Assembly: GCA_002269645.1 (NCBI GenBank)
Contig: NIVC01003152.1
Coordinates: forward strand, 52,354 to 116,353
Direction: 5' to 3'
Source of the DNA: Macrostomum lignano
Taxonomy: Eukaryota
Length of the DNA stretch: 64,000 nt
Shown: positions 3,471 to 57,652 of the stretch, in pieces
How the letters are laid out: each line of letters begins with the position of its first letter
Numbering within the stretch: position 1 is the first letter of the stretch
Notes under the pieces: model-generated
The model's database searches: none
Told to the model about the DNA's origin: nothing
What the model saw: the letters and a program-made list of their open reading frames with translations, nothing else
Position numbers and translations under genes: made by a program

Positions 3471-4284
3471 GGCGATTTCAGTGTTAGTAAAACGGTGGCT
3501 TTTTTTCAACAAAATGGCTTTAAGTTTAAAATGGTAACAAGCGTTAGGCAATAGGCGGGCCTAAAAAAATATAAATTAGGCGTTAGAACTTAGGACAGGT
3601 TAGGGCCTACTTCATAAAATAGCAGCCAAAAACTAAAACTTGATCGGCCTTGCCCTTGACGTAAGCCCCAAGTCCTAACAGCGAATACAAAAGATGTGAT
3701 TTCGGAATAAATAAAGTCTACAACTTGTGAAAATGAATAATAATATTTTAGCTGTACCAGTTAGAGCAGTCGGCGACGTTACTATAATTTACCGGAAATT
3801 TACTTGTGTTAAAAAACAATTTAAAAAATATATTTCTTTGTAATATGCTAAACGTTAAGAAGCATAAAAAATTCTGCAAGAAAACACTTTTTTAAAAGTT
3901 TTCGCTAACATTTATTTTAAAAATTGGTCACAATATTTTTAGTAAAGGAATTTTAAAGGTGACATTTCACCGAAACGTGTAGACCGACTAGCTCGTGCCG
4001 TAAGGTGTAACGCGTACAACTACAAGCATGTATATAACTTTGGCCGATCGGTTTTTACCGACGTTAAACCGACGTTAAAATGTACATAGAGGGAGTGGGG
4101 TGGCTGCACACTGATGACAAGTAGAATGGGGTGGCTGACAGGGAAATCCCCAAGGCCACCACAAGGCGCCTACCAATAAAAAGCAAAGCAAACTTAAGCA
4201 AATGGCGTGATTCTGAATTGATGACTCACTCGACACTCCTTACCGATCTGTCTCTGCAGTGCGCAACTACATGCATATACTGTT

Positions 4285-4935
4285 TGCATTTAAATACACT
4301 GCCGACGTAAACTTTTGCCGACGCTAACTTTTCCCATTCAAAATACATTGCCGACGTAAACTTTTGCCGACGCTAACTTTTCACATTGAAAATACATTGC
4401 CGACGTAAACTTTTGCCGACGCTAACTTTTCCCGTTCAAAATACATTGCCGACGTAAACTGTTGCCGACGCTAACTTTTCCCATTCAAAATACATTGCCG
4501 ACGTAAACTTTTGCCGACGCTAACTTTTTCTATAAATTATATATTCTAATACATTGCCGACGTAAACTTTTGCCGATGCTAACTTTTCCCATTCGAAATA
4601 CATTGCCGACGTAAACTTTTGCCGACGCTAACTTTTCACATTCAAAATACATTGCCGACGTAAACTTTTGCCGACGCTAACTTTTCCCGTTCAAAATACA
4701 TTGCCGACGTAAACTGTTGCCGACGCTAACTTTTCCCGTTCAAAATACATTGCCGACGTAAACTTTTGCCGACGCTAACTTTTTCTATAAATTATATATT
4801 CTAATACATTGCCGACGTAAACTTTTGCCGACGCTAACTTTTTCTATAAATTATATATTCTAATACATTGCCGACGTAAACTTTTGCCGACGCTAACTTT
4901 TCCCATTCAAAATACATTGCCGACGCTAACTTTTT
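4285..4935 (+). repeat. Left-arm tandem array (~49-56-bp units)
   Basis: Unit ATACATTGCCGACGTAAACTTTTGCCGACGCTAACTTTTCCCATTCAAA with a TTTCTATAAATTATATATTCTA variant. Confidence 0.9.
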
Positions 4936-5590
4936 CTTTTTAAATACATTTCCGATGGAAGAAATAGCGACGTTCGCCAGCCGAATTTTGCGAGCCGACG
5001 TTCGCCATCCGACGTTTGCCAGCCAACGTTTGCCAGCCGACGTTTGCCAGCCGGACATTTGCATGCGGCAATGGGTTAAAAGAATTATGCCCTCTCTAGG
5101 CTTACATGTACTTGCATTTGAAAACTGCGGACATAGCACCAATCTAATGCCACATCGCTCCCTTCTACTGCTACTAAATACAGGTCACTAACAAACTACT
5201 GCACACTAAAACCCTCTTCGTCTTCTTTTAGTAGCTAACATGTACCAAAAGAAACTGATGTAACCAAGACTGTCTAAACTACATCAGCAGCACCAAAGCG
5301 TGGCATAGCAACGTTTTTCAGCAGCCGACGTTTGTTAGCAAACATAAAGTCAGTCAGTGAAAAATTTGGTACTGAAATATTCGCAGTTTATAGCGGTTTG
5401 ACAAAAACCATTTTTAGTCCAACTTTTTGACGATTATTCGCCTGCATAAATAAATTTCTAAAACAGAATTTTTATAAAATAATGTCTTTCCTCCTAGACT
5501 GATTCGAAGCGGCATGGGGATGGGGAAGTGAAGGTCCGATTAGAGCTCTCCCGTGGTGTACATGTACATCTTAGAGGGAATTTTTTACTT

Positions 5591-9999: not shown

Positions 10000-10885
10000 G
10001 CAATGTATTTTGAACGGGAAAAGTTAGCGTCGGCAAGTTTACGTCGGCAATGTATTAGAATATATAATTTATAGAAAAAGTTAGCGTCGGCAAAATTTTA
10101 CGTCGGCAATGTATTTTGAACTGGAAAAAATAGCGTCGGCAAAAGTTTACGTCGGCAATGTATTAGAATATATAATTTATAGAAAAAGTTAGCGTCGGCA
10201 ACAGTTTACGTCGGCAATGTATTTTGAATGGGAAAAGTTAGCGTCGGAAAAAGTTTACGTCGGCAATGTATTTTGAACGGGAAAAGTTAGCGTCGGCAAA
10301 AGTTTACGTCGGCAATGTATTTTTAATGGGAAAAGTTAGCATCGGCAAAAGTTTACGTCGGCAATGTATTAGAATATATAATTTATAGAAAAAGTTAGCG
10401 TCGGCAAAAGTTTACGTCGGCAATGTATTAGAATATATAATTTATAGAAAAAGTTAGCGTCGGCAACAGTTTACGTCGGCAATGTATTTTGAACGGGAAA
10501 AGTTAGCGTCGGCAACAGTTTACGTCGGCAATGTATTTTGAACGGGAAAAGTTAGCGTCGGCAAAAGTTTACGTCGGCAATGTATTTTGAATGGGAAAAG
10601 TTAGCATCGGCAAAAGTTTACGTCGGCAATGTATTAGAATATATAATTTATAGAAAAAGTTAGCGTCGGCAAAAGTTTACGTCGGCAATGTATTTTGAAT
10701 GGGAAAAGTTAGCGTCGGCAACAGTTTACGTCGGCAATGTATTTTGAACGGGAAAAGTTAGCGTCGGCAAAAGTTTACGTCGGCAATGTATTTTGAATGG
10801 GAAAAGTTAGCGTCGGCAAAAGTTTACGTCGGCAATGTATTTTGAATGGGAAAAGTTAGCGTCGGCAAAAGTTTACGTCGGCAGT
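10000..10885 (-). repeat. Right-arm tandem array (inverse of 4285-4935)
   Basis: Unit GGCAATGTATTTTGAACGGGAAAAGTTAGCGTCGGCAAAAGTTTACGTC; more copies than the left arm. Confidence 0.9.
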
Positions 10886-12299
10886 GTATTTAAATGCAAA
10901 CAGTATATGCATGTAGTTGCGCACTGCAGAGACAGACCGGTAAGGAGTGTCGAGTGAGTCATCAATTCAGAATCACGCCATTTGCTTAAGTTTGCTTTGC
11001 TTTTTATTGGTAGGCGCCTTGTGGTGGCCTTGGGGATTTCCCTGTCAGCCACCCCATTCTACTTGTCATCAGTGTGCAGCCACCCCACTCCCTCTATGTA
11101 CATTTTAACGTCGGTTTAACGTCGGTAAAAACCGATCGGCCAAAGTTATATACATCTACAAGCCCTTTCAAAGAATTAGAATTAGACCTAAAACACACTT
11201 ACGTAATGAAAATAAAAGTGGGCCATTTTTTTCTGAAAACTACGATACCTTTTATCCCTACGCTCCAAATACGATCCCTCCAATACAATTTTATTAATAG
11301 TGTTATCGTAATTCGAAATAAACAAGCTCTTTTGGTTTTGTCTTACGATCACCTACATATAATTTCATCATTTGAAAGCTGATGATCGTGTGACAAAAGT
11401 AAATATAAGCTGGTGAATCTTTATCATTCCTTACCTTTTGTTCAGCTATCTAATTAATCCAACTCCAATTCTTCTAGAAATATATAATTCCACCCAAGCG
11501 GCCAAGCAGAAAAACTACGTATCCAATAGGTTAGACGTCTCTGATATGTAACTTTGGCATTCTTTCGTTTTACGATCCCCTTACATTTTTCCTATAGAAC
11601 ATGGCACTTTTGTTATACGATCCCCTATGTAAAAGATAGGAGTCTTGTTTGCATATCAGTGGAATATATTTGAAGCAAGATTAGGCCTACCCTAATTAAT
11701 TGTAAGCCACGATTCTTGGCAAGAGTAGGGACATCTCTATATTCACTTCCGTTATACAATCATTCAAATAGAGGAAATGTATGGAGAGGGGTTGGATAAC
11801 AAAACTTGGGCTTTTCATCAATTTTGTAATATGATCCCCCAAGTTGAAAATTTGTTTGCAGGGGATCATGTACATTGTCTAACCCATTGTCTAGGCTACC
11901 TGATTGTTTGGTAATTTTTGGTAATTGTTTTTTTACCAAACAATTTTATTAGTCATTGATTAAAGACAGAAAAAGTGATGGGTTTTAAATTTCTACTTTA
12001 AGTAGGTCCTAAGCATTTTAAATATGAAAATAAACATGAATAATTGTAAAACTAGCCCCAATGTTAATTTATACTATGAAAATTATGTCATAGGGTTTAT
12101 AAAATGCACAAGTCTTTTAAGGCCAAGTTTTAGAAATCTATATATATTATAATTGTCATAGGGATTTTGCTTTTATCGTTGCAAATGTCCTTAAATGCTG
12201 TTACCAAGTTATAACAAGGCTAAATCTATACTTTTTTAGAATTAGCCTTAGTATTGGTCTAAGTATATGTCTGAGTATTAGTCTAAGAATTATTCTTAG

Positions 12300-13153
12300 T
12301 GAGGCAGGCCCGATGTGTTTAATATTCACGTAACCATGATTTTAAATTTCCGCCAAACTACGCTTAACAACGCATTTTTGTTAGAACGAAATCTTTGTTT
12401 TAATGGGTTTGTTTTATTCGGGAAAATTATTTTGTTAAACCGCTATAAAGAAATTTGTTTATTCACGACCCGCGCACCCCACCTCCCCCTTTTTGAGACT
12501 ATAAATACAAGCGATTGCGGGCAATTTCCCCTTTGCCCGCCGTTTCCTCGATTCGGTCAAGAAAAGCAAAACGTGTTGTCTTAGTCACTGGAAAGCAAGA
12601 CAGGAGAAAAAGCTGTAAGAGGCCAGAAAAGCCGTAAGAGGCCAAGAAAGCTGTGAGAAGCCAGAAAAGCCGTAAGAGGCCAAGAAAAACTGTAAGAAGC
12701 CAGAAAAAGCCGTAAGAGGCCAGGAAAGCTGTGAGAAGCCAGAAATAGACGGTTGACGAGTCGGGCAACTCCTTCCCAGGGAGCCCGCAACTAAATATAG
12801 GGAATTAATAGTAGTAATAATAATAGTAGTGAGATTCATAATTACATGTAGACCAGTGTTTGCCGCTCGACACTGCTACCAGGGCGCCTTGCATAGATTC
12901 AAGGAGTCCTTAGATTAGAATTCTAGACTTGATATTTTCGAAGAAGCAGCAATTGACTAAGCAATTTTATGGAGTAATAACTATCTTAATTTACAACAAC
13001 TTGGTAACAGCAGTGGGATTTTAGCAGACAGAAATATCCCCTGCGACAACTTGGTGACATCGGTAGGATAGTCTACAATTTAGTTAAACACCCCCTGGTA
13101 CAACTTGGTGCCTGCGGTAGGATAATTTCTAGAGAGAGTTTAAGCCTGCAACA
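12300..13153 (+). repeat. 5' LTR (854 bp)
   Basis: TGAGGCAGG...CCTGCAACA. Identical by eye to the 3' LTR except one extra A (GAAATATCCC vs GAAATAATCCC). Contains ~19-20-bp AAAGCYGTRAGARGCC repeats (12608-12745). Confidence 0.95.
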
Positions 13154-13156
13154 ACT

Positions 13157-13175
13157 TGGTGGCAGCGGTGGGATT
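13157..13175 (+). promoter_or_regulatory. Primer-binding site complementary to the tRNA-Leu 3' end
   Basis: TGGTGGCAGCGGTGGGATT, 3 nt after the LTR, is the reverse complement of AATCCCACCGCTGCCA-CCA, the 3' end of metazoan tRNA-Leu(AAG/UAG). Confidence 0.85.
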
Positions 13176-13202
13176 GGAATCCGACTAAGTCGACCGCTAA
13201 AG

Positions 13203-13301
13203 CGAATAACGTGAGAGTACAGCAAATAACGTGAGAGTACAGCAAATAACGTGAGAGTACAGCAAATAACGTGAGAGTACAGCAAATAACGTGAGAGTAC
13301 A
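13203..13301 (+). repeat. 20-bp tandem repeat (about 5 copies) in the retrotransposon leader, abutting the gag ATG
   Basis: AATAACGTGAGAGTACAGCA repeated. Confidence 0.9.
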
Positions 13302-14201
13302 ATGGCAGCACTTAATGACGCTATAGGTTTATTAGCAGAGGAGCTTAGGAACAGGCTAGAACTAGGGCCTATGAGGCATGTAAAGATCCAAAAGTACACT
13401 CCCAGCCAGGATGTACGAATTTGGTTGACTGCATTCGATCAAAGGTGTGATCAGGAAGGAATAGATCAGGAGCACAGGAAAACTGAACTTCTAGCTAACC
13501 TAGATCTATCGACTGCGTTTGCAGCAGTGCAGCGATTAAATTTACCCGAGGATTTGACGTATGAGGAATTTAAGGAGAGATTGGTGGAAAGATTTGGCCG
13601 GATTGGTAGCTCATCTGAGTGCAGAGAAGAGTTTAGAGGTAGGATGCAGGGTAGAAACGAGGCAACCGACGTGTTCGCCGATGCTTTGATCGAACTAGCA
13701 GCTAGGGCGTTCCCAAATATGAACGCAGAACAGCGTGAAGAGGAAGTAATCGAGCAATTTATCAAGGGAGTAAGAATTTCCTCCGATACCCGGGAGAAAC
13801 TCATTTTTGCTCAGCCCACTAGCCTGCAGGAGGCCAGACGCATGCTTAGGAGAATAGAAGCAGCCTGGCATATGTCGCATAAGAACGGTGTCAGAGTCGT
13901 GAGAGACGAAGATGATGAGAAGAGCAAGTTAGAAAAGCTAATTAAGCAGCAGAAATCTGAGCTCGAAGAGCAGAAGAAGCTAATTCAGGAACTGCAAGCT
14001 GAAAAGCAGCAGCCGCCAGTTACTCAGACTAGGCCGCAATACTATCAGCCAAGAGTTCAGGCGTTCCAGCCACAGCTTCGCCCGCTGATGCAGCAGCAGA
14101 TAAGGAGGCAGATCCCGTGGAAGCCAACACAGAATGTAGTGCGACCTGGCTTTAACAACCAGAGTCGATTCCCTGCCCGCAACCCCAATCAGGGAAACTA
14201 G
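13302..14201 (+). CDS. gag: Retrotransposon Gag (capsid-like, Q/P/R-rich tail, no CCHC knuckle), 299 aa
   Basis: Intact ORF after the PBS with retrotransposon-capsid-like segments (IWLTAF, YEEFKERLVERFG, FRGRMQ, EQFIKGV). Confidence 0.85.
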   Translation: MAALNDAIGLLAEELRNRLELGPMRHVKIQKYTPSQDVRIWLTAFDQRCDQEGIDQEHRKTELLANLDLSTAFAAVQRLNLPEDLTYEEFKERLVERFGRIGSSSECREEFRGRMQGRNEATDVFADALIELAARAFPNMNAEQREEEVIEQFIKGVRISSDTREKLIFAQPTSLQEARRMLRRIEAAWHMSHKNGVRVVRDEDDEKSKLEKLIKQQKSELEEQKKLIQELQAEKQQPPVTQTRPQYYQPRVQAFQPQLRPLMQQQIRRQIPWKPTQNVVRPGFNNQSRFPARNPNQGN

Positions 14202-17200
14202 GATTCGAGGGTCGATATTCGAGGCCACGTCCCTCTAGGAAACCCCAAAGCGAAGCTCAGGCCTCTCATTTCTCCCGCAAACCCGTTTTCAACCCACTCC
14301 CTGGAGGATGGCGACAAGTCCCATTTTCCAGGAATTCAATGCGTAATGCACCAATGCGTAATGCACCAACGCGTAATGCACCCATGTATAGAGCACCAAT
14401 GCGTAATGCACCTGTAAACAGCGCGTCTCCCATCGCGCTATCTCCTAATATGTTTGAGTTATTGGCGTCAGAGCCCAGTGAGTCAGATGCAAAAGCATCA
14501 GCATCCGAGTTGACAAAGTCCCCAGTGACTAAGCCAGCAAATGCAAAGCAGAAGGCGAGAAAATCTCGCAAAGCGAAATATCGAGAAGCTAAGAAAGCAG
14601 CTGAGAAAGCAAAAGTTGAATTGATAAGCGAGAAAAGTAGCGAAGCAATTGTCTTTGGAGACGTTGAAGGTCAAGAAATTGACTTCTTGCTTGACACCGG
14701 AGCCGGAAACTGCTTCCTGAGCAAGTCAGTATGGTCCAAGGTGATCAAGACAGAGCAAATCAGAGAAACCAATAAGAGAGTTACCACATTTGATGGTTCC
14801 TCAGTGCAGCTAGAAGGAGAAGCTAGTGTGTCTGTAACCTTTGGAGATATTCAAATTAATATTAGCTTTTTGCTGTGCAGCTATGAATGTGATAACATTC
14901 TTGGCATGGACTTCTTCCTTTCTCACTGCAAAAGCATTGATTTAGATAATGGCATGCTTGTTCTAAAGAGAGGCCTCTGTGTGCCTATGCAGTACACCCG
15001 CCAAGCAGTTAGAATTTGCCGAGTTTATACTCGAGAAAAGGCAGTAGTACCTGCTAATAGTGCATTGAGAGTTCCCATTAGGCTAGCGAAAGACCATGAG
15101 CTCAATCATGGCACTCCTATGACAGTAGAAGTGATCGGAGAAGGCGTGAGAGCCAAGGAATTGACAGTAGAGATGGTTCCGACATTGGTCACCATGAGAG
15201 ACGGCAGTGCCATCGTGGAGATCGTGAATCGACACTCTGTCGACGTGAGACTGCCGAAGTCGACATTGATTGGTCTGGCCAAGCCCATGAGAGCCAAGGA
15301 CCTCGTCTACTGGTCAGCATCGCCTTCCGCCGCCGAATCAGCTTCGCCGACAATTGCCGAAGATGCCGCACAACCCGCCGGACGTGTCTATCAAGCTCAG
15401 GCAACTGAAGATGCTTGGGTGAGCGAAATTAGTATTGGTGCCAATTTATCTGAAAGTCAGCGAAAAGCAGTAATTGATCTCGTGAGAGAGAATAGAGAAG
15501 CATTTTCCCAGCATGATTTAGACATGGGATTGACTCATCTAGTCACTCATGAAATTTCCCTGAAGGACGAGACCCCTGTTAGAATCCCTACCCGCCGCAT
15601 CCCCCCTCATCTCCAAAAGCAAGTCGACGCCCAGCTAGACGACATGCTAGCCAAGAATCTCATTCGCCCCTGCTATTCTACCTATTCTACCCCATTAGTC
15701 ATTGTGCCAAAGAAGGATGGCACCATCCGAATAGTGAGTGATTTCCGAGTGCTCAACTCTAGAGTTAACTATTTTCCCTATCCCCTCCCCAATATTCAAG
15801 AAACTTTTTCTAATCTTACTGGCAGTAGGTACTTTAGTAGTTTAGATCTTAACTCAGGTTATTGGCAAGTGCCTATAAAGGAAGAGCATAAGTTCATGAC
15901 CGCGTTCTCTACTCTGACGCGAGGACAGTTTGAGTACCAGGTTATGGCGCAAGGGTTATCCAACGCGCCCGGTACATTTCAAAGACTGATGAACTTAGTG
16001 CTAGCCGGAATCCAGCATAAGTTTGCAATGTCGTATATTGACGATATAGTTACTTACTCGAAGCAATTTGAGGAGCATTTATCCCATCTAAGAGAGGTGT
16101 TTCAGAGATTGATCACCGCAGGTTTAAAGTTGAGAGCGAAAAAGTGCAACTTATTTCACTCTGAACTCAAGTATCTAGGCCATGTGATAGGCAGAGATGG
16201 CATTCGCACAGACGAAGCCAAGATTGAAGCCATTAGGACCTGGCCAAAGCCAAAGGAAGTAAAGGAATTAAGAAGCTTTTTAGGATTGTGCAACTACTAC
16301 AGCAGATTTGTCAAAAATTATGCTGAAGTAGCGCATCCTCTTTTCCAGTTGACTCGTAAGGGAGTTCAAAACTTCCAAGCAAAATGGACAGCAAAGCATG
16401 ATGAAGCGTTTGAGCTATTGAAAACCCGTATGATGAGTACTGACGTGTTAGCATACCCTGAGTTCATAGATGATGAGAAGGTGAAGATGGTTCTCGATGT
16501 AGACGCCAGTGATGGACGCATAGGTGCCTGTTTGGGACAAATCCAATCAGACGGTGTCGAGAGACCAATCGCCTACTTTAGTCGCGCTATGAAGGAGTCA
16601 GAAAAACGCTATCCCATAACTCGCAAGGAGTTGCTAGCTCTAGTAGATGCCATGAGGCATTTCCGCTTCTATCTAATAGGAAAGAAATTTCTAGCTAGGA
16701 CCGACCATAAGGCTATACTTTGGTTATTAAGGCAGACAGAAGCCCAGGGCATTTTAGGCAGATGGATTGAGCGCCTCAACGAGTTTCAATTTGAAATCGA
16801 GCATAGGAGTGGCGCGAAACATTCAAATGCCGATAGCTTGTCCCGAAGGCCAGCCGAGGCTGCCCAGCCAGATTGTAAAGCCAATGAGAAGGCGGAAGCC
16901 GAGAAGAAGAGTCGAGAGATAAGCAAAATCACCAGCAAAGGCGTAAGAGCCGAAGTGAACCAAGAGATAAGAACTGATAAAGAGGAGTTTATCCCCAGCG
17001 AACGCGTGTGTGCAAAGCAGAACCAGAATGGGAAGGCTAAGGACAGCATGAGCGATCTGACCCAGCCCCCCACTGAGCTGAGAGAAGGAGAGACCAACCC
17101 CCCTGAGCCACAGAGGAATAAAATAGTCTCTGGTGAGAAGAGTGTAAGGATTGACAGTGTGAAAACACAGAGCTCCTGCATTATGCAATCGAGCAGAGTC

Positions 17201-18946
17201 ACCCCACAATCTGAGCACAGTGAGGAGTATGGCACGCTGAAGGTTGGAGCATTATTAGTTGACTTCCTACCCAACCCCCTGCGGAGAGAGCAGATCGTTA
17301 ATGCCCAGCGAGAAGACCCCAATATTCGCACTTTGCTAAATTGCAAACTCGAAGAAAAGGAACCCCCCGCCGAGCAAAAGAGCATTAGCTCAGAATTAAG
17401 GCAGTTGAGCAAATTTTACGAGTTAATGAAAATCGAAAGCGATATGCTTGTTATTGAAGAAGAAGGAGTAAGCAAAATTGTGTTGCCAGTGTCGCTGGAC
17501 AAATTAGTGCTGGCTGATCTACACGATAGCCCACTAGCAGGACACTTGGGTCGTGACAAGACAGTGCAAAGAGTTAGGGAGAGATTTTGGAGACCTGGCT
17601 TAGTGACAGCCATTGAGAAGTACATATCTGAGTGTATTCCGTGTTTGGAAAGCAAAAGAGGATGCCCTGTTCAGGCTCCAGTGCAGTCATTCCCAGTCAA
17701 CGAGGCATTCCACCGCCTGCATATTGATATCATAGGCCCCATTTCGAAAGAAAGCAAGAGAGGCCATAGATATGTGCTGACTGTAGTTGATAGCACTACC
17801 CGCTACCCATTCGCGTTCCCGATCCGTAATCAGAAGTCTGATACCGTGATCAAGATCTTACAGGAGCGAATTTTCAGCGAATATGGTCAATGCCATTGGA
17901 TACATACTGACAATGGGAAAACCTTCACAAGCAGACAGTTTAAAGCGTTTTGCGATTTGTACAATGTTAAACACACTTGTACCACCCCGTACCATGCCCA
18001 AAGTAATGGCTTGGTAGAGAGGTTTAACAAGCAAGTGAAATCCATCATTACCTGTTTAATTAAGAAGGACCATAGCAATTGGGATTTAATGATCCCAGCA
18101 GCGCTTGTTGCAGTGCGCACTAGTGTGAATCAAACCACAGGCTATTCACCCCATTTCCTGTTATTCGGAAGGGAGCCAGTTTTGCCACTAGACAGTCAAA
18201 TTCGCCAGCCAAATCAGTACTCAGACTATCCAGCCTATGTCGCAGATCATGCCGAAAGGCTAGAAATTGCCAGAAAAATCGTGAGAGATAAGCTCGAGAA
18301 AGTTGCTGATAATAGAAAGAATATTGCTGAAACAGCCAAGCAGCCTAAGGAAGTATCAGTAGGGAGTTTAGCGCTAATAAATAACCCGCAGTTAGACAAT
18401 GAGGAGTCTAACAAATTTCACAGAAAGAAGAGAGCCGCCTATAGAGTGATCGAACAGATCTCAGATGTAGTATTTAGAGTGCAGAGAGAGGAAGATGGTG
18501 AGCTTGTAGGGAATAAATTATTAGTGCATAGGGACAATTTAACACTAGTTCCTAATTCGACCGCAGAATTGCCAATTAAGGGAAGCCAGCAGGAGAAGCA
18601 CCGGAAGAAAAATCAGTCGAGGAGGGAACCTAAAGCTAAGGGAAGCCACCCGCCGAGGAAGCATAAGGAGGTAGTGATTAGTGAAGAGTCTGAGTCTGAC
18701 ACTGAATCTGAAGATGAACGAGTGCAATGGCAATGCCAACTGAGAGAATCCGAAACGGAACCAGCAACTGAGAGCGAAGATGAGAGCCAAGAGTCAGAGA
18801 GTGCAGTAGAAGAAGAAGGAATAATGAGCAATGCAGAAGACGCCAGAGAGAACAATGAGATTGAGCATGAGCACGAGGAAGCTAATTCAGAGAGGAGATA
18901 CAATACACGCAGGCAGGTCAGGCCCCCAAGTGCTATTGTTGCTTGA
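14198..18946 (+). CDS. pol: Pol polyprotein (protease, RT, RNase H, integrase), reached by -1 frameshift
   Basis: FLLDTGA; SYIDDIV; LDVDASD and ARTDHKA; H-x-GHLG...CIPC, HIDIIGP, TDNG, NGLVERFN. The frame is open from 14198, 47 codons before the ATG at 14339. Confidence 0.95.
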   Translation, partial: LGFEGRYSRPRPSRKPQSEAQASHFSRKPVFNPLPGGWRQVPFSRNSMRNAPMRNAPTRNAPMYRAPMRNAPVNSASPIALSPNMFELLASEPSESDAKASASELTKSPVTKPANAKQKARKSRKAKYREAKKAAEKAKVELISEKSSEAIVFGDVEGQEIDFLLDTGAGNCFLSKSVWSKVIKTEQIRETNKRVTTFDGSSVQLEGEASVSVTFGDIQINISFLLCSYECDNILGMDFFLSHCKSIDLDNGMLVLKRGLCVPMQYTRQAVRICRVYTREKAVVPANSALRVPIRLAKDHELNHGTPMTVEVIGEGVRAKELTVEMVPTLVTMRDGSAIVEIVNRHSVDVRLPKSTLIGLAKPMRAKDLVYWSASPSAAESASPTIAEDAAQPAGRVYQAQATEDAWVSEISIGANLSESQRKAVIDLVRENREAFSQHDLDMGLTHLVTHEISLKDETPVRIPTRRIPPHLQKQVDAQLDDMLAKNLIRPCYSTYSTPLVIVPKKDGTIRIVSDFRVLNSRVNYFPYPLPNIQETFSNLTGSRYFSSLDLNSGYWQVPIKEEHKFMTAFSTLTRGQFEYQVMAQGLSNAPGTFQRLMNLVLAGIQHKFAMSYIDDIVTYSKQFEEHLSHLREVFQRLITAGLKLRAKKCNLFHSELKYLGHVIGRDGIRTDEAKIEAIRTWPKPKEVKELRSFLGLCNYYSRFVKNYAEVAHPLFQLTRKGVQNFQAKWTAKHDEAFELLKTRMMSTDVLAYPEFIDDEKVKMVLDVDASDGRIGACLGQIQSDGVERPIAYFSRAMKESEKRYPITRKELLALVDAMRHFRFYLIGKKFLARTDHKAILWLLRQTEAQGILGRWIERLNEFQFEIEHRSGAKHSNADSLSRRPAEAAQPDCKANEKAEAEKKSREISKITSKGVRAEVNQEIRTDKEEFIPSERVCAKQNQNGKAKDSMSDLTQPPTELREGETNPPEPQRNKIVSGEKSVRIDSVKTQSSCIMQSSRVTPQSEHSEEYGTLKVGALLVDFLPNPLRREQIVNAQREDPNIRTLLNCKLEEKEPPAEQKSISSELRQLSKFYELMKIESDMLVIEEEGVSKIVLPVSLDKLVLADLHDSPLAGHLGRDKTVQRVRERFWRPGLVTAIEKYISECIPCLESKRGCPVQAPVQSFPVNEAFHRLHIDIIGPISKESKRGHRYVLTVVDSTTRYPFAFPIRNQKSDTVIKILQERIFSEYGQCHWIHTDNGKTFTSRQFKAFCDLYNVKHTCTTPYHAQSNGLVERFNKQVKSIITCLIKKDHSNWDLMIPAALVAVRTSVNQTTGYSPHFLLFGREPVLPLDSQIRQPNQYSDYPAYVADHAERLEIARKIVRDKLEKVADNRKNIAETAKQPKEVSVGSLALINNPQLDNEESNKFHRKKRAAYRVIEQISDVVFRVQREEDGELVGNKLLVHRDNLTLVPNSTAELPIKGSQQEKHRKKNQSRREPKAKGSHPPRKHKEVVISEESESDTESEDERVQWQCQLRESETEPATESEDESQESESAVEEEGIMSNAEDARENNEIEHEHEEANSERRYNTRRQVRPPSAIVA

Positions 18947-19029
18947 AGCGGCTGGCCACTGTGCTGTCTTTGTTGAACAATCTCAGTTTCTGAGTGGAGG
19001 AGAAGGAAGGAAGGAGAAGGAGGAGTGAG

Positions 19030-19250
19030 AGCCAATGAGAGGAGGCGTAGAAGTGAAGGGATTTCGAGGCCGTGGATAGGGGGAGAGAGGCGAAGAGACC
19101 GACAGCCAATAAGGAAGAATCATCAGCCAATGAGAGAAGACCTGCCATTTAAACAAATAATTGTTTGTTTGAATAAGCTTGAAACATGATACCCCCCAAA
19201 GTGGAATGTTTGTAAACCTATATAAGCGAGATCCCTGACGCAATCAGTTC
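19030..19250 (+). promoter_or_regulatory. Putative internal Pol II promoter upstream of ORF3
   Basis: AGCCAAT at 19030, 19104 and 19125; TATATAA at 19219-19225; TCAGTT (Inr-like) at 19244-19249; ATG at 19320. Confidence 0.6.
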
Positions 19251-19319
19251 CTCATCCTCAACAGAGCAATAAGGCAGCAATTAAGTAGCAATAAAGAAGC
19301 AGTCAAGAGCAAATCCGTT

Positions 19320-20791
19320 ATGGATAAAGAAAACGAAGAGTTAAATATTTTAGCAGACGGTAGTGAATTTGACGATCTATTAAAAGAGCTTGAAGGGCCT
19401 TGGCCCATGCAGCAAGATGAGCAAACTGAGCAACCACAGCCAGAGCGTTCAGCGCAGCAAAACGAGCAAGAACAGCTAGCTGAGGCCCCGTCGCAGCCGC
19501 CTGCTACGCAGCAGCCTGCCCGACGCTGGCACCGCCGTCAGAGCCATTACGGGAGCGTCAGCCAGCTGACCTGCCCGGGCCCTCGCAGCCACCGGAGCCC
19601 TCCACCAAGCCAAAGCGACCTGCTGCGGAAACGGATCAGGGTACACAAGCAAAGAGGCCGGCCCCGTCAGGGCTGCCAGTGTCCCAGGATCCGGCAGCAC
19701 GACAGGAGCTCGTTAGAGTAAAGTCGGTGCAGTCCGTGGTGGTAAAACCGACGGTGATGCAGAGGCACCCGGCTGGCGCGCGGCCCACACTGATGTTAGC
19801 TGCCCCGCCTCAGCAGCAGCGGCCGGCTCAGCGGTCGCAGCCTCGGCGTGTGGCGTCGCGAGCAGAAGTCCGACAGCAGCTGCCAGTGCACCGCAGGCTG
19901 GCTCCGCGGCCGCCGCCGCAGCAGCGCCAGCAGTCGCCGCCGCAGCGCCGCCACCAGTCTCCGCCGCGGCACCGTCAGCAGCCACCGCCGTCTCAGCACC
20001 GTCAGCAGCCACCGCCGTCTCAGCATCATCAGCAGCCACCGCCGTCTCAGCATCATCAGCAGCCACCGCCGTCTCAGCATCATCAGCAGCCACCGCCGCC
20101 TCAGCATCATCAGCAGCCACCGCCGTCTCAGCATCATCAGCAGCCACCGCCGTCTCAGCATCATCAGCAGCCACCGCCGTCTCAGCATCATCAGCAGCCA
20201 CCGCCGTCTCAGCATCATCAGCAGCCACCGCCGTCTCAGCATCATCAGCAGCCACCGCCGTCTCAGCATCATCAGCAGCCACCGCCGTCTCAGCATCATC
20301 AGCAGCCACCGCCGTCGCATCAGCAGCCGCCACCGCAGACTGCAGTGCCACCACAGGCGTCAACCTGCCGTGCAGCTGCAAGTTATTTGTTTGCCCCCGG
20401 CAACCAAGACATCCAAAGGCTTGCTGCGATGGGCGCCGACTTCAGCGCCATCATGGACGGTTTGTCGCCAGAACAGCAGGCAAGAATGAAGCGACTGATT
20501 GCTGCCCTGAAGGAATATCTAATGCGAATCGGCCACTTGCGGTTGGACCGGCCGCTGCCACAGCGGGCCCAGGTCCGGCCAGCCTGCATTGTGCTTCGCC
20601 AAGAATTCACGCCTGAGCAAGCTGTCGCGGCTTGGCGCCGCGCCGTGAATTACGTACTTCATGACCTGAATGCGGCTGGCCAGCCGTACTTTCGCACGCT
20701 GCTTATCATCGAGATTAAGTGGCTCGCCGAGCAAGTCGGATGGCCTCTACGCGACCTTTTGCCGGACGAATTTAATCTGAATGATAATTAG
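19320..20791 (+). CDS. Accessory ORF3 of the Gypsy element (~490 aa if one base lost near 19520 is restored): acidic N-terminus, P/Q-rich linker, QQPPPSQHH repeats, ~140-aa helical C-terminal domain
   Basis: The two ORF-track ORFs overlap in adjacent frames; the second frame is open 19484-20791, and joining at ~19520 gives a compositionally continuous protein. No signal peptide or TM segment, so not env-like. Confidence 0.7.
19976..20338 (+). repeat. 27-bp coding tandem repeat (QQPPPSQHH, about 13 copies)
   Basis: CAGCAGCCACCGCCGTCTCAGCATCAT units, nearly invariant. Confidence 0.92.
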
Positions 20792-21159
20792 GTGACTATA
20801 ATTGAACTGTCATGTACTGTTATTTTTTCGCATTGCATGCATACCTATTTAGCCTTCACTAATTTGCATGGATACTTATTTGGCCAAAATTCTTGTGTGC
20901 TCAACTTTGTGCAACTTTATATTTAGCCAAACATCTTTTTGTACGCTCAACTTCGTGCCATTTTAATAATAGCCAACCTTGCTCAATTCTTCCACTAACT
21001 ATATTACTGATATTACCATGTTGTGTGCTGTTTTAATGTTTTAGTGTCAGCCAATTTTATCTAGTGCCTACGTTTTGTGATTAAAAGCCCCTTTTGCACT
21101 TTAACTACACATTTATTCACTCACTAGTTTATTCATAAATATGTAGAAGGGAAGCCAGT

Positions 21160-22014
21160 TGAGGCAGGCCCGATGTGTTTAATATTCACGTAACCATGAT
21201 TTTAAATTTCCGCCAAACTACGCTTAACAACGCATTTTTGTTAGAACGAAATCTTTGTTTTAATGGGTTTGTTTTATTCGGGAAAATTATTTTGTTAAAC
21301 CGCTATAAAGAAATTTGTTTATTCACGACCCGCGCACCCCACCTCCCCCTTTTTGAGACTATAAATACAAGCGATTGCGGGCAATTTCCCCTTTGCCCGC
21401 CGTTTCCTCGATTCGGTCAAGAAAAGCAAAACGTGTTGTCTTAGTCACTGGAAAGCAAGACAGGAGAAAAAGCTGTAAGAGGCCAGAAAAGCCGTAAGAG
21501 GCCAAGAAAGCTGTGAGAAGCCAGAAAAGCCGTAAGAGGCCAAGAAAAACTGTAAGAAGCCAGAAAAAGCCGTAAGAGGCCAGGAAAGCTGTGAGAAGCC
21601 AGAAATAGACGGTTGACGAGTCGGGCAACTCCTTCCCAGGGAGCCCGCAACTAAATATAGGGAATTAATAGTAGTAATAATAATAGTAGTGAGATTCATA
21701 ATTACATGTAGACCAGTGTTTGCCGCTCGACACTGCTACCAGGGCGCCTTGCATAGATTCAAGGAGTCCTTAGATTAGAATTCTAGACTTGATATTTTCG
21801 AAGAAGCAGCAATTGACTAAGCAATTTTATGGAGTAATAACTATCTTAATTTACAACAACTTGGTAACAGCAGTGGGATTTTAGCAGACAGAAATAATCC
21901 CCTGCGACAACTTGGTGACATCGGTAGGATAGTCTACAATTTAGTTAAACACCCCCTGGTACAACTTGGTGCCTGCGGTAGGATAATTTCTAGAGAGAGT
22001 TTAAGCCTGCAACA
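21160..22014 (+). repeat. 3' LTR (855 bp)
   Basis: Near-identical to 12300-13153; ends CCTGCAACA followed by TSD TTAG. Confidence 0.95.
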
Positions 22015-22132
22015 TTAGTATTTATCTCAGTATTATTCTAAGTATTAGTTATCCCTTATATTGGTAGCATTTCTAGCATTCTCACTGTTATTCTAGTAGC
22101 ATTGTATGCAAATTTGACCTGAGCAGTATATA

Positions 22133-23580
22133 CCTGATTGTTGGGACATTTTTTTACATTTGTTACAAGTTTATTCAATATAACACTTTTCTGTACAACA
22201 AGGTTATCAATCTTAAATGTAGTCACCATCATGGTCAATAACTATCTGCCAGCATGTATGTAGGGAGCGGATGCCCTGGCTATAGAACCCCGGGCACTGG
22301 CCCTCAAACAAGTTTGTCAGGTTGTCCTCGTCATTGAATTGCTGGCCGGCCAAAGAATGGTCAAGGGCAGCAAACATGTGATAACTGGTAGGTGCAAGAT
22401 CTGGGCTGTATGGTGGGTGGGGAAGAATCTCCCAGCCTACTCATAGCTTGAGGAGCAGCTTCTGATGGGTCAACTGTGCCTTGTGCGCAGGTGCATTGTC
22501 ATGCAGCAAGATGACCTGGCAATATTCAAGGTGCACCTCAGCCAGCTTCTGCTGCAGGCGCTCAAGCTGCTCCTGGTAGAAGGAGCATTGATACTATTGT
22601 TCATGCTTGGGCGCAACCTTGGGATTCACTCGGCCGTTTCTATTGGCAACACACACATGTAAGTCGCTATTGGACGGAATAGTAGTCACGTGACTGCTCT
22701 CAGCCAATAGCGACTTACATGTGTGTGTTGCCAATAGAAACGGCCAGGTGATTCCCAAAGTTGCGCATGTATGCTATTGTTCTTTGGCAGCAGCTCCCAC
22801 ATTATGATTCCTTTCGTGTCCTAGAAGACTGAAAGCATGACCTTTTTGGGGTATAGTTCAGCCTTGGCCTCTCGCTCTGGCTTTGCATCCAAATCAACCC
22901 ACTGTTGCTCGCATTGGATGTTGATGTAGAGGCACTATTTTTTGTCACCTGTCACCACATCATCCAGCCAATCCAGATGGCAGGATCAGGAGAGCATGGT
23001 GAGGGCAGCCTCAATATGCCGGTCCTTGTCAGTGGCAGTCAGCTGGTAGGGCACCCAACATCCCAGCTTTGGTTTCTTGTTCAGACAGTGAAGGTGGTCA
23101 GCAACAGTGGAATGATGCACACCTAGCTGCGTGGCCAGCTTATGCGTAGTCTGCTGGGTGTCCCACTCAAGCAGTTGCTCAAGTGCACTGTCGTCAAGCT
23201 CTGCCAGCTGGCCATTGTGGGGCTTGTCTTTAAGGCCCTCATCTCCATCTTTGAATTGCCTGAACCAATTGTTGGTAGTCTGATGGGTGAGGGTTCCTGC
23301 ACCAAAAGTAGCATTGATGTCAGTGGCCAATTGTCTTGCATTCTTGCCAGAGCAATAGTCATAGAGAAGCAGAATTTGCTGCAGGTCTTTTGAGTACAGA
23401 GTATCTTTCGCCGTTTCAGCATTTCAGACAGTTGAGCAAAGAATTTTTTATCTATTGTAGTTTTTTATGCACATTACACTACTATTTATATGTACATTAC
23501 ATTAAGAATGTCCCAGAATGTTCCAAAACAGGCAAAAATAGAATATTATGGAATTTAAAAGTACTTTATTGACAATCAGA
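22133..23580 (-). mobile_element. Decayed mariner (DD34D) DNA transposon, interrupted by a MITE
   Basis: Minus strand gives QILLLYDY..GKNA, WFRQFKDGD, LGCWVPYQLT, VTGD-like, LLHDNAPAH, HPPYSPDLAPTSYHMF, WQIVIDHDGDYI*. Degenerate TIRs (CCTGATTGT / ACAATCAGA) flanked by TA. Confidence 0.88.
22602..22773. mobile_element. 172-bp palindromic MITE, 8-bp TSD, same terminal family as 1223-1520
   Basis: TSD CTATTGTT (22594-22601 and 22774-22781). Right end GTTGCGCATGTATG. About 65-bp inverted arms. CpGs retained, unlike the host mariner. Confidence 0.88.
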
Positions 23581-27999: not shown

Positions 28000-30900
28000 A
28001 TGATTTTCTTTTGTTGCAGCAAAGGTGCCAACAATTTGTGCAATTTCTTTCACTCTCGACCGCCACTTGTCATTTTTTTATTTAACTTAATAATATTTGC
28101 TGCTGCACTTTTGTTTCTGTCCTACTGGATTCAGTATAATGATATGCAGAACCCTGATGCCACTAAGGTTGGTTATATTCTTAATTATTTCATAATTCAT
28201 TATCTTTGAGGTGCTACTGACAGTAGGCATTGAGACTTAGTATTGCAATTTGAAATCTGAGAATTTTTCGTAATAAAAAAACACTAGTACTAGAAATCCC
28301 AAATCTTACTATGCTTATCTTTGATCAAAATAGAATCTATTATTTATCACAAAACTCAATCAAATTGAAGTTATCTAGAAGCCAAGAATATTCCAAATAT
28401 AATAATTCCAAACTATCAGATATATTGATCCTAAATTCCAAATCCCACGATCCCACATCTCATGATCACAAATTTCATGATCCCAAATCTCTTGATCCCA
28501 AATCCCATGATCCCAATCCCATGATCCCAAATCCAATGATCCCAAATCCGATGATCCCAAATCCCATAATTCCGAATTCCATGATCCTAAATCCCATGAT
28601 CCCAAATCCCATGATCCCAATCCCATGATCCCAACCCAAATCCAATGATCCCAAATCCCACGATCCCAAACCCATGATCCCAAATCCAATGATCCCAAAT
28701 TCCAAGATCCCAAATCCCATGATCTCAAATCCTCATTATCCTAACTCTCATGCTCTTAAATCCTAATGACTCCACCCCAAGAATCCAAAAACTTAAGATT
28801 CCCCAAAATTGTAGAAATTCCAAATTCCAACAATGTCACAAATCTCAGAGCGCTCTCTCCCTCTGCTCCACCCTTCACACGCAGGACTGGAACAGATTTC
28901 TGGAACGATTCGCCTCAATGGAGATCTGCCTGACGGGCAACAAGTCTTATCCATTCATTCGTCGTCTGTCGGCTTTCACCATAGACGGCGACAGCGCCAT
29001 CGACTTGCCGCAGCCGGTGGCTCACGCGCAGCCGCGGCTGAAACTGCACCGCATGCTGCTTGGGGTGGAGCTGGACGATAAGCAGAGACACGCGCTGTCG
29101 AACTATTCAATACTGATTGGAGCTATCAGTGGCAGACTGTTGGGGCTTAGAGATCGAAGTACAGCTTATCAGGTGTGCGGATCCAAATTGTAATTATTAA
29201 AAAGGTTACCGTGACCAGAATCGTTCTTTTTAACAACTCAAGTCGCGAAAAAAGTCTTGCAAATAGTCGTTTGTGTTAGCGCTTAACTTTCTACTAATTC
29301 AAGTAGACTAAATGGAGTGAAATGCGATTTTAATTCATAAAGTGACGCAACTCAGTGATTCTATACAGCGACTTGACCTCTCTTGTACCGTGACATCTCG
29401 TTGCTTAAGAGTCAAATAGAGTCGATTCTTTCTTATTTTACCTGTGTTACCTGAAATTACTGGTTTAAAGTATTATTAACATAAACTCTCTCCCCAGGTG
29501 ATCAACATCACGGCTGTGATACCCCAGTTGCCAAAGAAGCGTGACAAAATCTGCGTCGAAATGGTCGGTCCCGAGTCGATCTTCCCTCGAACGAAGCCGC
29601 CCCGCCAGTGCGGCAGCCCGAGCTTTGATCTCTCCAGACGTCTGCTGTCTAGCGGAGATCCAACGCCCAGCCTGAGGATGTCCTACATGTACATATTCAA
29701 GACTGTGTACTGGTCCAGTTTGTTCTTTTGTAGTTCTGGGCAGCCCAGACTGAAGCTGAAGTACTCGCATAATCCTCGGCTTACTGAGATGCTATCGACT
29801 GTGAGTGATTTTAATTTTACTTAATTATTGTCCTCTGCTATCCGTAGGGGTCTGAGCGTGAGCTGAAAACCCTAAGCTTGTAGGTTTAGCTTTCACAGAT
29901 CCCTAAGCTTGTAGGTTTGGCATTCACAGATCCCTGTAATTGTAGGTTTAGCATTCACAGATCCCTGTAATTGTAGGTTTAGCATTCACAGATCCCTGTA
30001 ATTGTAGGTTTCGCATTCACAGATCCCTGTAATTGTAGGTTTAGCATTCACAGCTCCCTGTAATTGTAGGTTTCGCATTCACAGATCCCTGTAATTGTAG
30101 GTTTAGCATTCACAGATCCCTGTAATTGTAGGTTTCGCATTCACAGCTCCCTGTAATTGTAGGTTTCGCATTCACAGCTCCCTGTAATTGTAGGTTTCGC
30201 ATTCACAGATCCCTGTAATTGTAGGTTTAGCATTCACAGATCCCTGTAATTGTAGGTTTCGCATTCACAGATCCCTGTAATTGTAGGTTTAGCATTCACA
30301 GATCCCTGTAATTGTAGGTTTCGCATTCACAGCTCCCTGTAATTGTAGGTTTCGCATTCACAGATCCCTGTAATTGTAGGTTTAGCATTCACAGATCCCT
30401 GTAATTGTAGGTTTCGCATTCACAGCTCCCTGTAATTGTAGGTTTCGCATTCACAGATCCCTGTAATTGTAGGTTTAGCATTCACAGCTCCCTGTAATTG
30501 TAGGTTTCGCATTCGCAGATCCCTGTAATTGTAGGTTTAGCATTCACAGATCCCTGTAATTGTAGGTTTCGCATTCACAGCTCCCTGTAATTGTAGGTTT
30601 AGCATTCACAGCTCCCTGTAATTGTAGGTTTCGCATTCACAGATCCCTGTAATTGTAGGTTTAGCATTCACAGATCCCTGTAATTGTAGGTTTCGCATTC
30701 ACAGCTCCCTGTAATTGTAGGTTTCGCATTCACAGCTCCCTGTAATTGTAGGTTTCGCATTCACAGATCCCTGTAATTGTAGGTTTAGCATTCACAGATC
30801 CCTGTAATTGTAGGTTTAGCATTCACAGATCCCTGTAATTGTAGGTTTAGCATTCACAGCTCACTAAAAAGCATCAGTAATCATTCACAGATCACTAATA

Positions 30901-37354: not shown

Positions 37355-37922
37355 AAACCGTTTCTCTTGACATTCAGATTGAGATCCTTTCCATTTGATT
37401 CGCATTTTAATTAATTAAAACTGCTTCTCATCAGCAGCAGTACTACTGCCAGTTTGTTTTAAACTGTCAGTAGTATAGTTGAACATTAAATCTGACTTTT
37501 ATAGGCACTCCTATGCATCGTAAAAATATAGTAGGGATCTAGGGAGATTCCGATGTAGATTTCTCTCTTTATGATGATGATATTGCTGATTATTTTAAGG
37601 ATTAAACAGCTATAGCTTTCTCTTTGCAGGCCTGTTTCCCAACTCTGTTCTCAAATATTTGCTCAGCAGCTTAAGGCTAGCTGCGATCCCTGCTCTCGAC
37701 ATTTCTGTTGCTCTCAAATGCTCGCAGATTTTGCCATTGCTCTGGGAAATTCCTGAGCTCCGTGTGCGAAGGAAGGGAAACAAGTAGAAGGTTTGAAATA
37801 TTTTCATTTAGCTGTGCTTGCGGAGCAATGAGATATTGGGATGATGCTTAGGGCTTTGTATAGCTCAATATATGCAGAATAAACAGCTTTTTAATCTCGT
37901 CCTTGATTGTAAGGACACAGTG

Positions 37923-57600: not shown

Positions 57601-57652
57601 ATGACTATACAGCACCATAAGATGCCGCCTGTAACCGCAGGACGCCTTCAAA

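What the first reader, a model, noticed from the sequence alone, without database searches (positions are those of the whole stretch)
12994..13175. LTR ends in a repeat-spacer array of extra primer-binding-site copies
Inside both LTRs three units precede the true PBS at 50-55-nt spacing: CAACTTGGTAACAGCAGTGGGAT, CAACTTGGTGACATCGGTAGGAT and CAACTTGGTGCCTGCGGTAGGAT, versus the real CAACTTGGTGGCAGCGGTGGGAT. Each reproduces the LTR-end/ACT/PBS junction, while the intervening ~25-30-nt spacers are much more diverged. PBSs normally lie outside the LTR. The copies keep TGGT (anti-CCA) and G-GAT, so they could be alternative priming sites for other tRNAs, decoys for 3'-tRNA fragments (which are known to repress LTR elements through the PBS), or relics of stepwise LTR extension. 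They would also appear at the 3' end of transcripts or solo LTRs.
Basis: partly seen in the sequence, partly recalled or inferred. Interest (0 to 1): 0.7.

Follow-up and report, generated by a model that had tools for sequence, protein, structure and literature searches.

The report
Retrotransposon LTR with repeated primer sites
A flatworm retrotransposon carries three imperfect extra copies of its primer-binding site and adjoining LTR end inside its terminal repeats; they look conserved and may be back-up start points for copying the element, but that is untested.

Summary
The array is real. It fills the last 164 nt of both LTRs of an intact, recently inserted Ty3/gypsy retrotransposon (12300-22014), almost certainly of the flatworm Macrostomum. 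The repeated block is 30 nt: 9-nt LTR end, ACT, 18-nt primer-binding site (PBS). The copies match the active junction at 75 of 90 positions, against 19 of 72 in the flanks. The spacers are no more alike than shuffles, so even neutral decay of a tandem duplication fits poorly. The active PBS is the exact complement of a flatworm tRNA-Leu(AAG/TAG) 3' end. Each copy is 15/18 to that tRNA and matches no other tRNA in a planarian proxy set, so 'sites for other tRNAs' is unsupported; the tRF-decoy reading is weak. Best reading (0.4): duplicated LTR-end/PBS junctions kept as secondary start sites for the same tRNA, each able to give an integration-ready shorter LTR (699, 749 or 803 nt instead of 854). 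Against it: this copy started at the last site, copy pairing is about half as strong, and no family members or host tRNAs were reachable. My literature searches found no description of such an array; Sirevirus multiple PPTs are the closest analogue.

The parts
12296..12299 (+). left copy of 4-bp target-site duplication
   Evidence: same 4 nt at 22015-22018
12300..13153 (+). 5' LTR, 854 nt, TG...CA, ends match as inverted repeat at 7 of 9 nt
12500..12507 (+). TATA-like box (candidate promoter; start site inferred near 12530)
   Evidence: inference
12976..12981 (+). last AATAAA-like hexamer (one mismatch) of the LTR, just upstream of the array; no exact AATAAA in the LTR
12990..13019 (+). copy 1: LTR-end-like 9 nt (12990-12998), ACT, PBS-like 18-mer (13002-13019); 6 of 30 differ from the active junction
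13020..13039 (+). spacer 1 (20 nt; holds the only difference between the LTRs)
13040..13069 (+). copy 2: LTR-end-like 9 nt, ACT, PBS-like 18-mer (13052-13069); 4 of 30 differ
13070..13093 (+). spacer 2 (24 nt)
13094..13123 (+). copy 3: LTR-end-like 9 nt, ACT, PBS-like 18-mer (13106-13123); 5 of 30 differ
13124..13144 (+). spacer 3 (21 nt)
13145..13174 (+). active junction: LTR terminus (13145-13153), ACT, PBS 13157-13174, 18/18 complement of a flatworm tRNA-Leu(AAG/TAG)-type 3' end plus CCA
13175..13301 (+). leader: predicted stem partner of the PBS at 13188-13203, then five 20-nt tandem repeats up to the gag ATG
13302..14201 (+). gag, 299 aa, no CCHC knuckle; 73% to an M. lignano protein
14156..18946 (+). 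pol, open over 1596 codons in the -1 frame; protease, RT, RNase H, integrase in that order
19239..20791 (+). extra coding region after pol (two overlapping frames, Q/P-rich, C-terminal domain of no Pfam family)
21145..21154 (+). polypurine tract ending 5 nt before the 3' LTR
21160..22014 (+). 3' LTR, 855 nt
21850..21984 (+). the three junction copies in the 3' LTR (PBS-like 18-mers at 21862, 21913, 21967); no fourth PBS follows the LTR end
22015..22018 (+). right copy of the target-site duplication

Best explanation
The array is a series of duplicated LTR-end/PBS junctions that selection has kept usable as secondary start sites for the same tRNA-Leu. Step 1 (inferred, about 0.8): a ~52-nt unit holding the LTR end and the PBS was duplicated in tandem during reverse transcription; when minus-strand synthesis starts at the most 3' copy, the upstream copies are copied into U5 and so appear in both LTRs. 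Step 2 (shown statistically): only the 30-nt junction stayed alike; the spacers drifted beyond recognition. Step 3 (inferred): the junctions are kept because tRNA-Leu sometimes primes at an upstream copy when the main PBS is blocked or folded away. The product is a provirus with shorter LTRs (699, 749 or 803 nt) that still ends in CA with the 3-nt spacer integrase needs, and that gives the same transcript, so the array is passed on whichever site is used. In Ty3-type reverse transcription the PBS is inherited from the element and not rewritten from the tRNA, so mismatched copies can persist while in use.
For: The conserved block runs from offset -12 to +17 around each TGG, i.e. LTR terminus + 3 nt + 18-nt PBS, and stops there: 75 of 90 positions match the active junction against 19 of 72 in 12-nt flanks, Fisher p 1e-13. 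No spacer pair of 10 beats its shuffles (best p 0.14). Simulated even decay of a duplicated unit gave spacers this unalike in 0 of 3000 runs at 12.5% change per copy and 2.5% of runs at 20%; the cores differ by 13-20% with no indel. The terminal ACA-ACT is intact in 3 of 3 copies and the 5-nt inverted-repeat part is 5/5 in copy 2 and 4/5 in copy 3: integrase would need this, a decoy would not. All 9 PBS changes fall in 6 columns and spare those facing CCA, base 73, 61 and 62 (p 0.05; 0.007 with ACA-ACT; 0.024 for G columns only). The copies are the best sites for the primer end in the element after the PBS. Active mouse ERVs tolerate 0, 2 or 3 PBS changes, and Ty1/Ty3 inherit their PBS (PMC7472051; PMC5371799).
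Against: This insertion was primed at the last site: both LTRs hold all three copies. No shorter-LTR copy or solo LTR is in the window. Primer pairing at the copies is -22.4, -19.4 and -21.5 kcal/mol against -39.3 at the PBS, and the best unrelated site scores -19.3. All three differ at PBS position 6 and copy 1 also at 5, inside the first 6 nt that suffice for HIV-1 priming (PMC7472051). Copy 1 keeps only 2 of 5 inverted-repeat bases. The same 5-nt motif is predicted to pair with the preceding PBS copy in 2 of 3 cases, so RNA folding could explain its retention. 8 of 9 changes hit G and ACA-ACT holds no G, so mutation bias could spare it. Neutral decay is not rejected if spacers changed by 30% per copy (26% of runs). 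One element, three copies, no family alignment.
Confidence: 0.4

Rival explanations
1. Relics with no present function: retired junctions left by stepwise LTR extension, in which spacers were never homologous or turned over unusually fast and the cores are simply decaying with a G-to-A bias.
For: 6 of 9 PBS changes are G to A and 8 of 9 hit G. Copy 1, the most upstream, is the most changed (6 of 30 against 4 and 5). No copy matches a second tRNA in the proxy set. The element's non-coding DNA is prone to slippage (19- and 20-nt tandem repeats).
Against: Near-constant period (50-54 nt) points to homologous spacers, and even decay of homologous units is rejected at core-level divergence. All three copies stop at exactly 3 PBS changes with no indel. 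I know no mechanism that inserts a bare 30-nt junction three times at equal steps (own knowledge).
Confidence: 0.22
2. Binding-only sites: the copies hold tRNA-Leu (or its 3' fragments) without priming, either loading extra primer into the particle next to the PBS or soaking up 3'-tRFs; mismatches near the primer's 3' end stop extension.
For: Sharp 18-nt boundary fits an 18-nt tRF3a or the annealed tRNA end. Position 6 is changed in 3 of 3 copies while both ends of the site are intact. 3'-tRF repression through 5' UTR sites can be seed-independent (PMC12853362). gag lacks the CCHC knuckle that its relative has, so primer capture might need help (speculation).
Against: No need for the LTR terminus, which is kept. 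tRF3a is highly mismatch-sensitive (PMC7472051), so a perfect PBS would out-compete the copies, and extra Argonaute sites in cis would add silencing rather than relieve it (inference). Planarian small-RNA data show 5' halves, tRF-5 and internal fragments, no tRF-3 class (PMC7962491; standard libraries under-count 3'-tRFs, own knowledge).
Confidence: 0.17
3. The cores are kept for RNA structure or protein binding (a row of U5 hairpins for packaging, dimerisation or initiation, or DNA sites phased about five helical turns apart), not for tRNA pairing.
For: Each PBS-like 18-mer is partly paired in the local fold with probability 0.8-1.0 for three of four; copy 1 folds with its own spacer better than 96% of spacer shuffles; one double change keeps an LTR-end/PBS pair in copy 3.
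Against: Region z-score -0.48; units 2, 3 and the active unit do not beat spacer shuffles (0.90, 0.40, 0.25); whole array beats only 93% of 300 shuffles; covariation reached by 127 of 500 shuffles; shuffling the copies shifts the cost of opening the PBS by 0.6 kcal/mol or less (40 shuffles each). The predicted helices differ in register between units.
Confidence: 0.13
4. Each copy is the exact PBS of a different host tRNA, giving the element a panel of primers.
For: Changes fall where tRNA isoacceptors vary (acceptor stem, position 63). Copy 1 faces an A1-U72 type end, as in mammalian Leu-UAA, and copies 2 and 3 carry a T-stem motif allowed in Ser tRNAs (PMC9023262 Table 1).
Against: 0 hits for motifs complementary to any copy in the planarian tRNA tables. 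By eye, copies 2 and 3 are 13/18 or worse to the Leu-CAG and Leu-TAA types and copy 1 only ties at 15/18 with Leu-CAG. Leu tRNAs keep the GUGGG T-stem in insects and mammals and in the planarian rows read; the Ser-type rows end in G73, which would need TGGC.
Confidence: 0.08

Closest known systems
Sirevirus multiple polypurine tracts (Bousios et al. 2010, PMC2829016; abstract and passages read)
   Same: Several conserved copies of a reverse-transcription primer site cluster beside an LTR junction; only the terminal one is the normal site; role unclear.
   Different: There the plus-strand primer (8-nt PPT) is repeated, outside the LTR, copies are identical and lack the attachment site, in plant Ty1/copia. 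Here the tRNA site is repeated, inside the LTR, each copy is mismatched and keeps the LTR terminus, in an animal Ty3/gypsy.
Ty3 and Ty1 bipartite primer-binding sites (PMC5371799, passages)
   Same: More than one element segment pairs with the primer tRNA; in Ty3 one segment lies in the LTR.
   Different: The segments pair with different parts of one tRNA. Here all four sites resemble the complement of the same 3' 18 nt, so one tRNA cannot use two.
Mismatched PBS variants of mouse ERVs under 3'-tRF pressure (PMC7472051, passages and part 4 of 8)
   Same: PBSs with 2-3 changes can still prime and may escape tRF block.
   Different: Variants occur one per element across a family, not as an array in one element beside a perfect PBS.
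Helenus, Ajax and Cassandra TRIMs (PMC10886601, abstract only)
   Same: tRNA-related or other small-RNA-related sequence inside an LTR.
   Different: Those are non-autonomous and carry a Pol III promoter derived from a whole small-RNA gene; here the element is autonomous and only the 18-nt complement of the tRNA end is repeated (no tRNA-like hit).
Engineered retroviral vectors with two PBSs (recalled; no paper seen)
   Same: Starting at the downstream PBS moves the upstream PBS into the LTR; both sites can be used.
   Different: Artificial, two perfect sites, retroviral tRNA-copying mechanism.
M. lignano Ty3/Mdg4 families (PMC12801592; part 1 of 6, passages, supplement 1, motif searches)
   Same: Same host genus and superfamily; one CsRN1 family also ends its LTR in ACA followed by ACT.
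   Different: The paper does not mention PBSs (0 occurrences); in the six heat-shock families supplied, motifs of this array gave no hit (long lines are cut at about 400 characters). This element's clade was not determined.

Membership tests
Ty3/gypsy LTR retrotransposon | two direct LTRs with TG...CA ends and a short target-site duplication | tested here: met
   854/855 nt, one indel apart, 4-bp duplication
Ty3/gypsy LTR retrotransposon | pol order protease, RT, RNase H, integrase | tested here: met
   Pfam positions 168-253, 517-678, 744-877, 1111-1280; best solved match includes Ty3 Gag-Pol, E 2e-80
Ty3/gypsy LTR retrotransposon | PBS complementary to a tRNA 3' end just after the 5' LTR, and PPT before the 3' LTR | tested here: met
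   18/18 to planarian Leu-AAG-type end; purine tract 21145-21154
Ty3/gypsy clade (Gmr1/Osvaldo, CsRN1, Mag or Mdg3/Micropia) | placement on an RT tree with reference elements | not testable with these tools
   no clade-labelled reference RTs came from any call
Sirevirus-type multiple primer sites | several copies of a primer site clustered at an LTR junction | tested here: met
   three extra PBS-like copies at 50-54 nt steps; PBS rather than PPT
Sirevirus-type multiple primer sites | copies identical, outside the LTR, without attachment site; Ty1/copia | tested here: not met
   copies mismatched, inside the LTR, with LTR terminus; gypsy order
Ty3-type bipartite PBS | segments complementary to different arms of one tRNA | tested here: not met
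   all four sites align to the same 18 nt
TRIMs with small-RNA-derived LTRs (Helenus, Ajax, Cassandra) | non-autonomous; tRNA- or 5S-like gene in the LTR | tested here: not met
   open gag and pol; no ARAGORN or Rfam hit
secondary priming sites | insertions or cDNAs that end at an upstream copy | not testable with these tools
   no Macrostomum DNA beyond the window; none in the window
priming sites for other tRNAs | exact or near-exact match to a second host tRNA | tested here: inconclusive
   not met in a planarian proxy; host tRNAs unavailable, none in the window
3'-tRF decoy | host makes Leu 3'-tRFs that bind the copies | not testable with these tools
   proxy species shows no tRF-3 class

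The most novel reading that the evidence does not exclude
A natural multi-start retroelement: one perfect PBS plus three deliberately detuned, integration-ready back-up junctions, so that the element can still start and integrate when host 3'-tRNA fragments block the perfect site. The family would then exist in four LTR length classes that all give the same transcript, and the LTR end would be chosen anew at each cycle.
Probability: 0.25. Interest if true: 0.75.

Novelty: new variant of a known kind. Interest (0 to 1): 0.52.

Why it matters
The PBS is the one site every tRNA-primed LTR element must keep and the site that host 3'-tRFs attack. A natural element with a row of complete spare junctions would show a way round that trade-off not found in my searches, and would show how LTRs grow at the U5 end. 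It is cheap to test: the model predicts LTRs of 699, 749, 803 and 854 nt in an already sequenced laboratory model with transgenesis. If the copies are relics, it remains a clean record of stepwise LTR extension and a caution for annotation tools that set LTR ends by the first PBS match.

Tried and rejected
Related DNA: one scan of bacterial and archaeal genomes for a two-unit PBS-like pattern returned 88 loci; 0 of 88 had a tblastn hit to pol or gag, 0 had a short blastn hit to the array, and 132 of 157 matches had a period divisible by 3, i.e. mostly coding repeats. Uninformative. Viral and metagenome contigs stayed unchecked, and no eukaryotic genome collection is on hand, so no family alignment was possible. 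Cluster look-up for two M. lignano relatives could not be made. tRNA or ncRNA in the window: none. Repeated-hairpin and PBS-accessibility ideas: tested, not supported. tRNA-templated resetting of the copies: considered and dropped, because Ty1 and Ty3 do not inherit the tRNA copy and no copy is perfect. CRISPR-like spacer capture: spacers have no match elsewhere in the window at word size 9, E 1e-3; no mechanism; dropped. Literature searches for a prior description: searches gave 0 papers; one search gave 3 and one search gave 10 (9 listed), none describing an array by listing, passages of two read; one search was swamped by other meanings of PBS (3772 papers, 40 listed, none relevant). The library lacks most subscription journals, and the earlier M. 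lignano LTR classification cited in PMC12801592 was not seen. Supplements of PMC12801592 hold sequences for six families only and long lines are cut, so absence there is weak. No fold or complex prediction was run; none bears on the question.

Full report
Context. The finding lies at the end of the 5' LTR of an intact LTR retrotransposon at 12300-22014 (+). The LTRs (12300-13153, 21160-22014) differ by one 1-nt indel and are flanked by a 4-bp target-site duplication, so the insertion is recent. gag (13302-14201) is followed by pol in the -1 frame, open over 1596 codons, with protease, RT, RNase H and integrase in Ty3/gypsy order; the best solved relatives of the RT region include Ty3 Gag-Pol. 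The RT-RNase H region is 88% identical to a Macrostomum lignano protein, the next M. lignano hit 66%, and all other listed hits 50% or less. gag has 2 hits, one a named M. lignano protein at 73%. A host transporter exon at 57635-58036 is 97% identical to M. lignano. The host is therefore M. lignano or a close relative (inference).

Observation. The four strings are present as stated, with three more in the 3' LTR; 7 matches against 0.00 expected. For the 24-nt junction the window holds 1 exact site, 6 at three mismatches and nothing else below eight. The LTR ends at 13153; ACT and the 18-nt PBS (13157-13174) follow. Three PBS-like 18-mers (13002, 13052, 13106) lie inside the LTR at steps of 50, 54 and 51 nt, each preceded by ACA-ACT. 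That both LTRs carry them adds no independent evidence. No exact AATAAA is in the LTR, and all 14 one-mismatch variants lie upstream of the array, the last at 12976, so the array is most likely U5 (inference; transcript ends unmapped).

What is repeated. Column by column, similarity to the active junction starts 12 nt before TGG and ends at the last PBS base. That block is the 9-nt LTR terminus, the 3-nt spacer and the 18-nt PBS. It matches at 75 of 90 positions, against 12 of 36 upstream and 7 of 36 downstream. Copies differ from the active junction at 6, 4 and 5 of 30 positions, three of them in the PBS each time, with no indel. The spacers (20, 24, 21 nt), the leader and the sequence upstream of copy 1 gave no pair above shuffle in 10 comparisons (best p 0.14). 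Simulated even decay of a duplicated unit produced spacers this unalike in 0 of 3000 runs at 12.5% substitution per copy, 2.5% at 20%, and 26% at 30%. So at the divergence the cores show, neutral decay of a whole unit is unlikely, unless the spacers were never homologous or changed much faster. The even period argues that they were homologous (inference).

Which tRNA. In the planarian tRNA table (PMC7962491, supplement 2; parts 1, 22 and 23 of 105 read, whole file searched by motif) Leu-AAG-type genes end in the exact complement of the active PBS once CCA is added. Motifs complementary to copies 1, 2 and 3 gave 0 hits. By eye, each copy is 15/18 to the Leu-AAG/TAG type; copy 1 ties at 15/18 with the Leu-CAG type; copies 2 and 3 are 13/18 or worse to CAG and TAA types. 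That table is noisy and the species is distant, but Leu motifs are conserved from insects to mammals (PMC9023262, Table 1 passage). The window holds no tRNA gene, so host tRNAs stayed unchecked. The nine PBS changes fall at positions 5, 6, 8, 9, 11 and 14 and spare those facing CCA, base 73, 62 and 61 (p 0.05, or 0.024 for G columns only); 8 of 9 hit G and 6 are G to A, which also fits mutation bias. The primer end pairs at -39.3 kcal/mol with the PBS and -22.4, -19.4, -21.5 with the copies; the best unrelated site in the element gives -19.3.

Structure. Local folding pairs part of each site with a neighbour, but the region is not more stable than shuffles (z -0.48), only unit 1 of 4 beats spacer shuffles (0.037), covariation of an LTR-end/PBS hairpin was reached by 127 of 500 shuffles, and shuffling the copies hardly changes the cost of opening the PBS. 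I do not claim a structural role, though pairing confounds the retention of the 5-nt inverted-repeat motif.

Mechanism. Starting minus-strand synthesis at the most 3' of tandem junctions places the upstream ones in U5; this follows from the standard LTR cycle and explains the position. What needs explaining is why exactly the junction is kept. A site that is sometimes primed must keep tRNA pairing and must leave CA plus the 3-nt spacer for integrase; a decoy needs only the first. The product of upstream priming has shorter LTRs (699, 749, 803 nt) but the same transcript, so the array survives either way. Active mouse ERVs tolerate up to three PBS changes, tRF3a block is mismatch-sensitive, and Ty1/Ty3 inherit their own PBS rather than the tRNA copy (PMC7472051; PMC5371799), so mismatched sites could stay in use without being corrected. 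I give this 0.4. Against it: this copy used the last site; pairing is weak; position 6 differs in all copies; copy 1 has lost most of the inverted repeat (2 of 5). Rivals: functionless relics 0.22, binding-only sites 0.17 (the planarian survey shows no tRF-3 class), structure or protein sites 0.13, other tRNAs 0.08.

Comparison and novelty. The element is an ordinary Ty3/gypsy by every feature tested; its clade was not determined. The closest natural analogue is the Sirevirus cluster of multiple PPTs, whose upstream copies lack the attachment site (PMC2829016). Ty3's bipartite PBS pairs with different tRNA arms, and Helenus/Ajax LTRs hold small-RNA-derived promoters (abstract). Searches found no description of PBS arrays in an LTR, and the M. 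lignano LTR paper does not mention PBSs, but the library is partial and bioRxiv supplements were closed. A scan of prokaryote genomes for relatives was uninformative.

Verdict. Real, statistically clear, apparently undescribed architecture in a known kind of element; function inferred from one copy. Interest 0.52; new variant of a known kind. A length survey of the family's LTRs in the host genome would settle most of it.

Noticed in passing
window 13302-14201: gag lacks the CCHC zinc knuckle that its named M. lignano relative has at the aligned place; no CCHC knuckle in any of six frames of the element. The start of the pol frame holds basic 15-nt repeats (14337-14412) that might stand in.
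   Followed up: partly
window 19239-20791: Extra coding region after pol, in two overlapping frames, with a TATA-like site at 19219 and Q/P-rich 27-nt repeats. No Pfam family, Atlas hits all under 0.9. Its last 140 aa have 6 hits at E up to 0.001; four match most of the domain at 33-40%, two of them at the C-terminus of longer proteins: a small unnamed accessory domain.
   Followed up: partly
window 14192-14201: A heptamer of the X-XXY-YYZ slippery type sits right before the gag stop, fitting -1 frameshifting into pol (sequence shown).
   Followed up: no
window 13192-13198: A 7-nt leader motif, unique in the element, is complementary to the PBS and, by eye, to the D-loop of the planarian Leu tRNA: a possible extended primer contact; too short to be significant. 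The copies lack it.
   Followed up: partly
window 13201-13301 and 12608-12745: Five 20-nt tandem repeats end at the gag ATG; a 19/38-nt repeat lies in the LTR.
   Followed up: no
window 4028-4936 and 10000-11155: Long inverted arms built of 49-nt repeats, about 5 kb apart, enclosing GC-rich DNA; foldback- or DNA-transposon-like.
   Followed up: no
window 22986-23423 (-): Fragment of a mariner/Mos1-type transposase (helix-turn-helix domain).
   Followed up: no
window 28723-29190 and 57635-58036: Host exons: a TMEM219-family match and a sodium:neurotransmitter symporter; the latter 97% to M. lignano.
   Followed up: partly
window 37904-38669, 46760-47332, 58090-59293: Three arrays of the same 42/43-nt minisatellite, the third inverted.
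   Followed up: no
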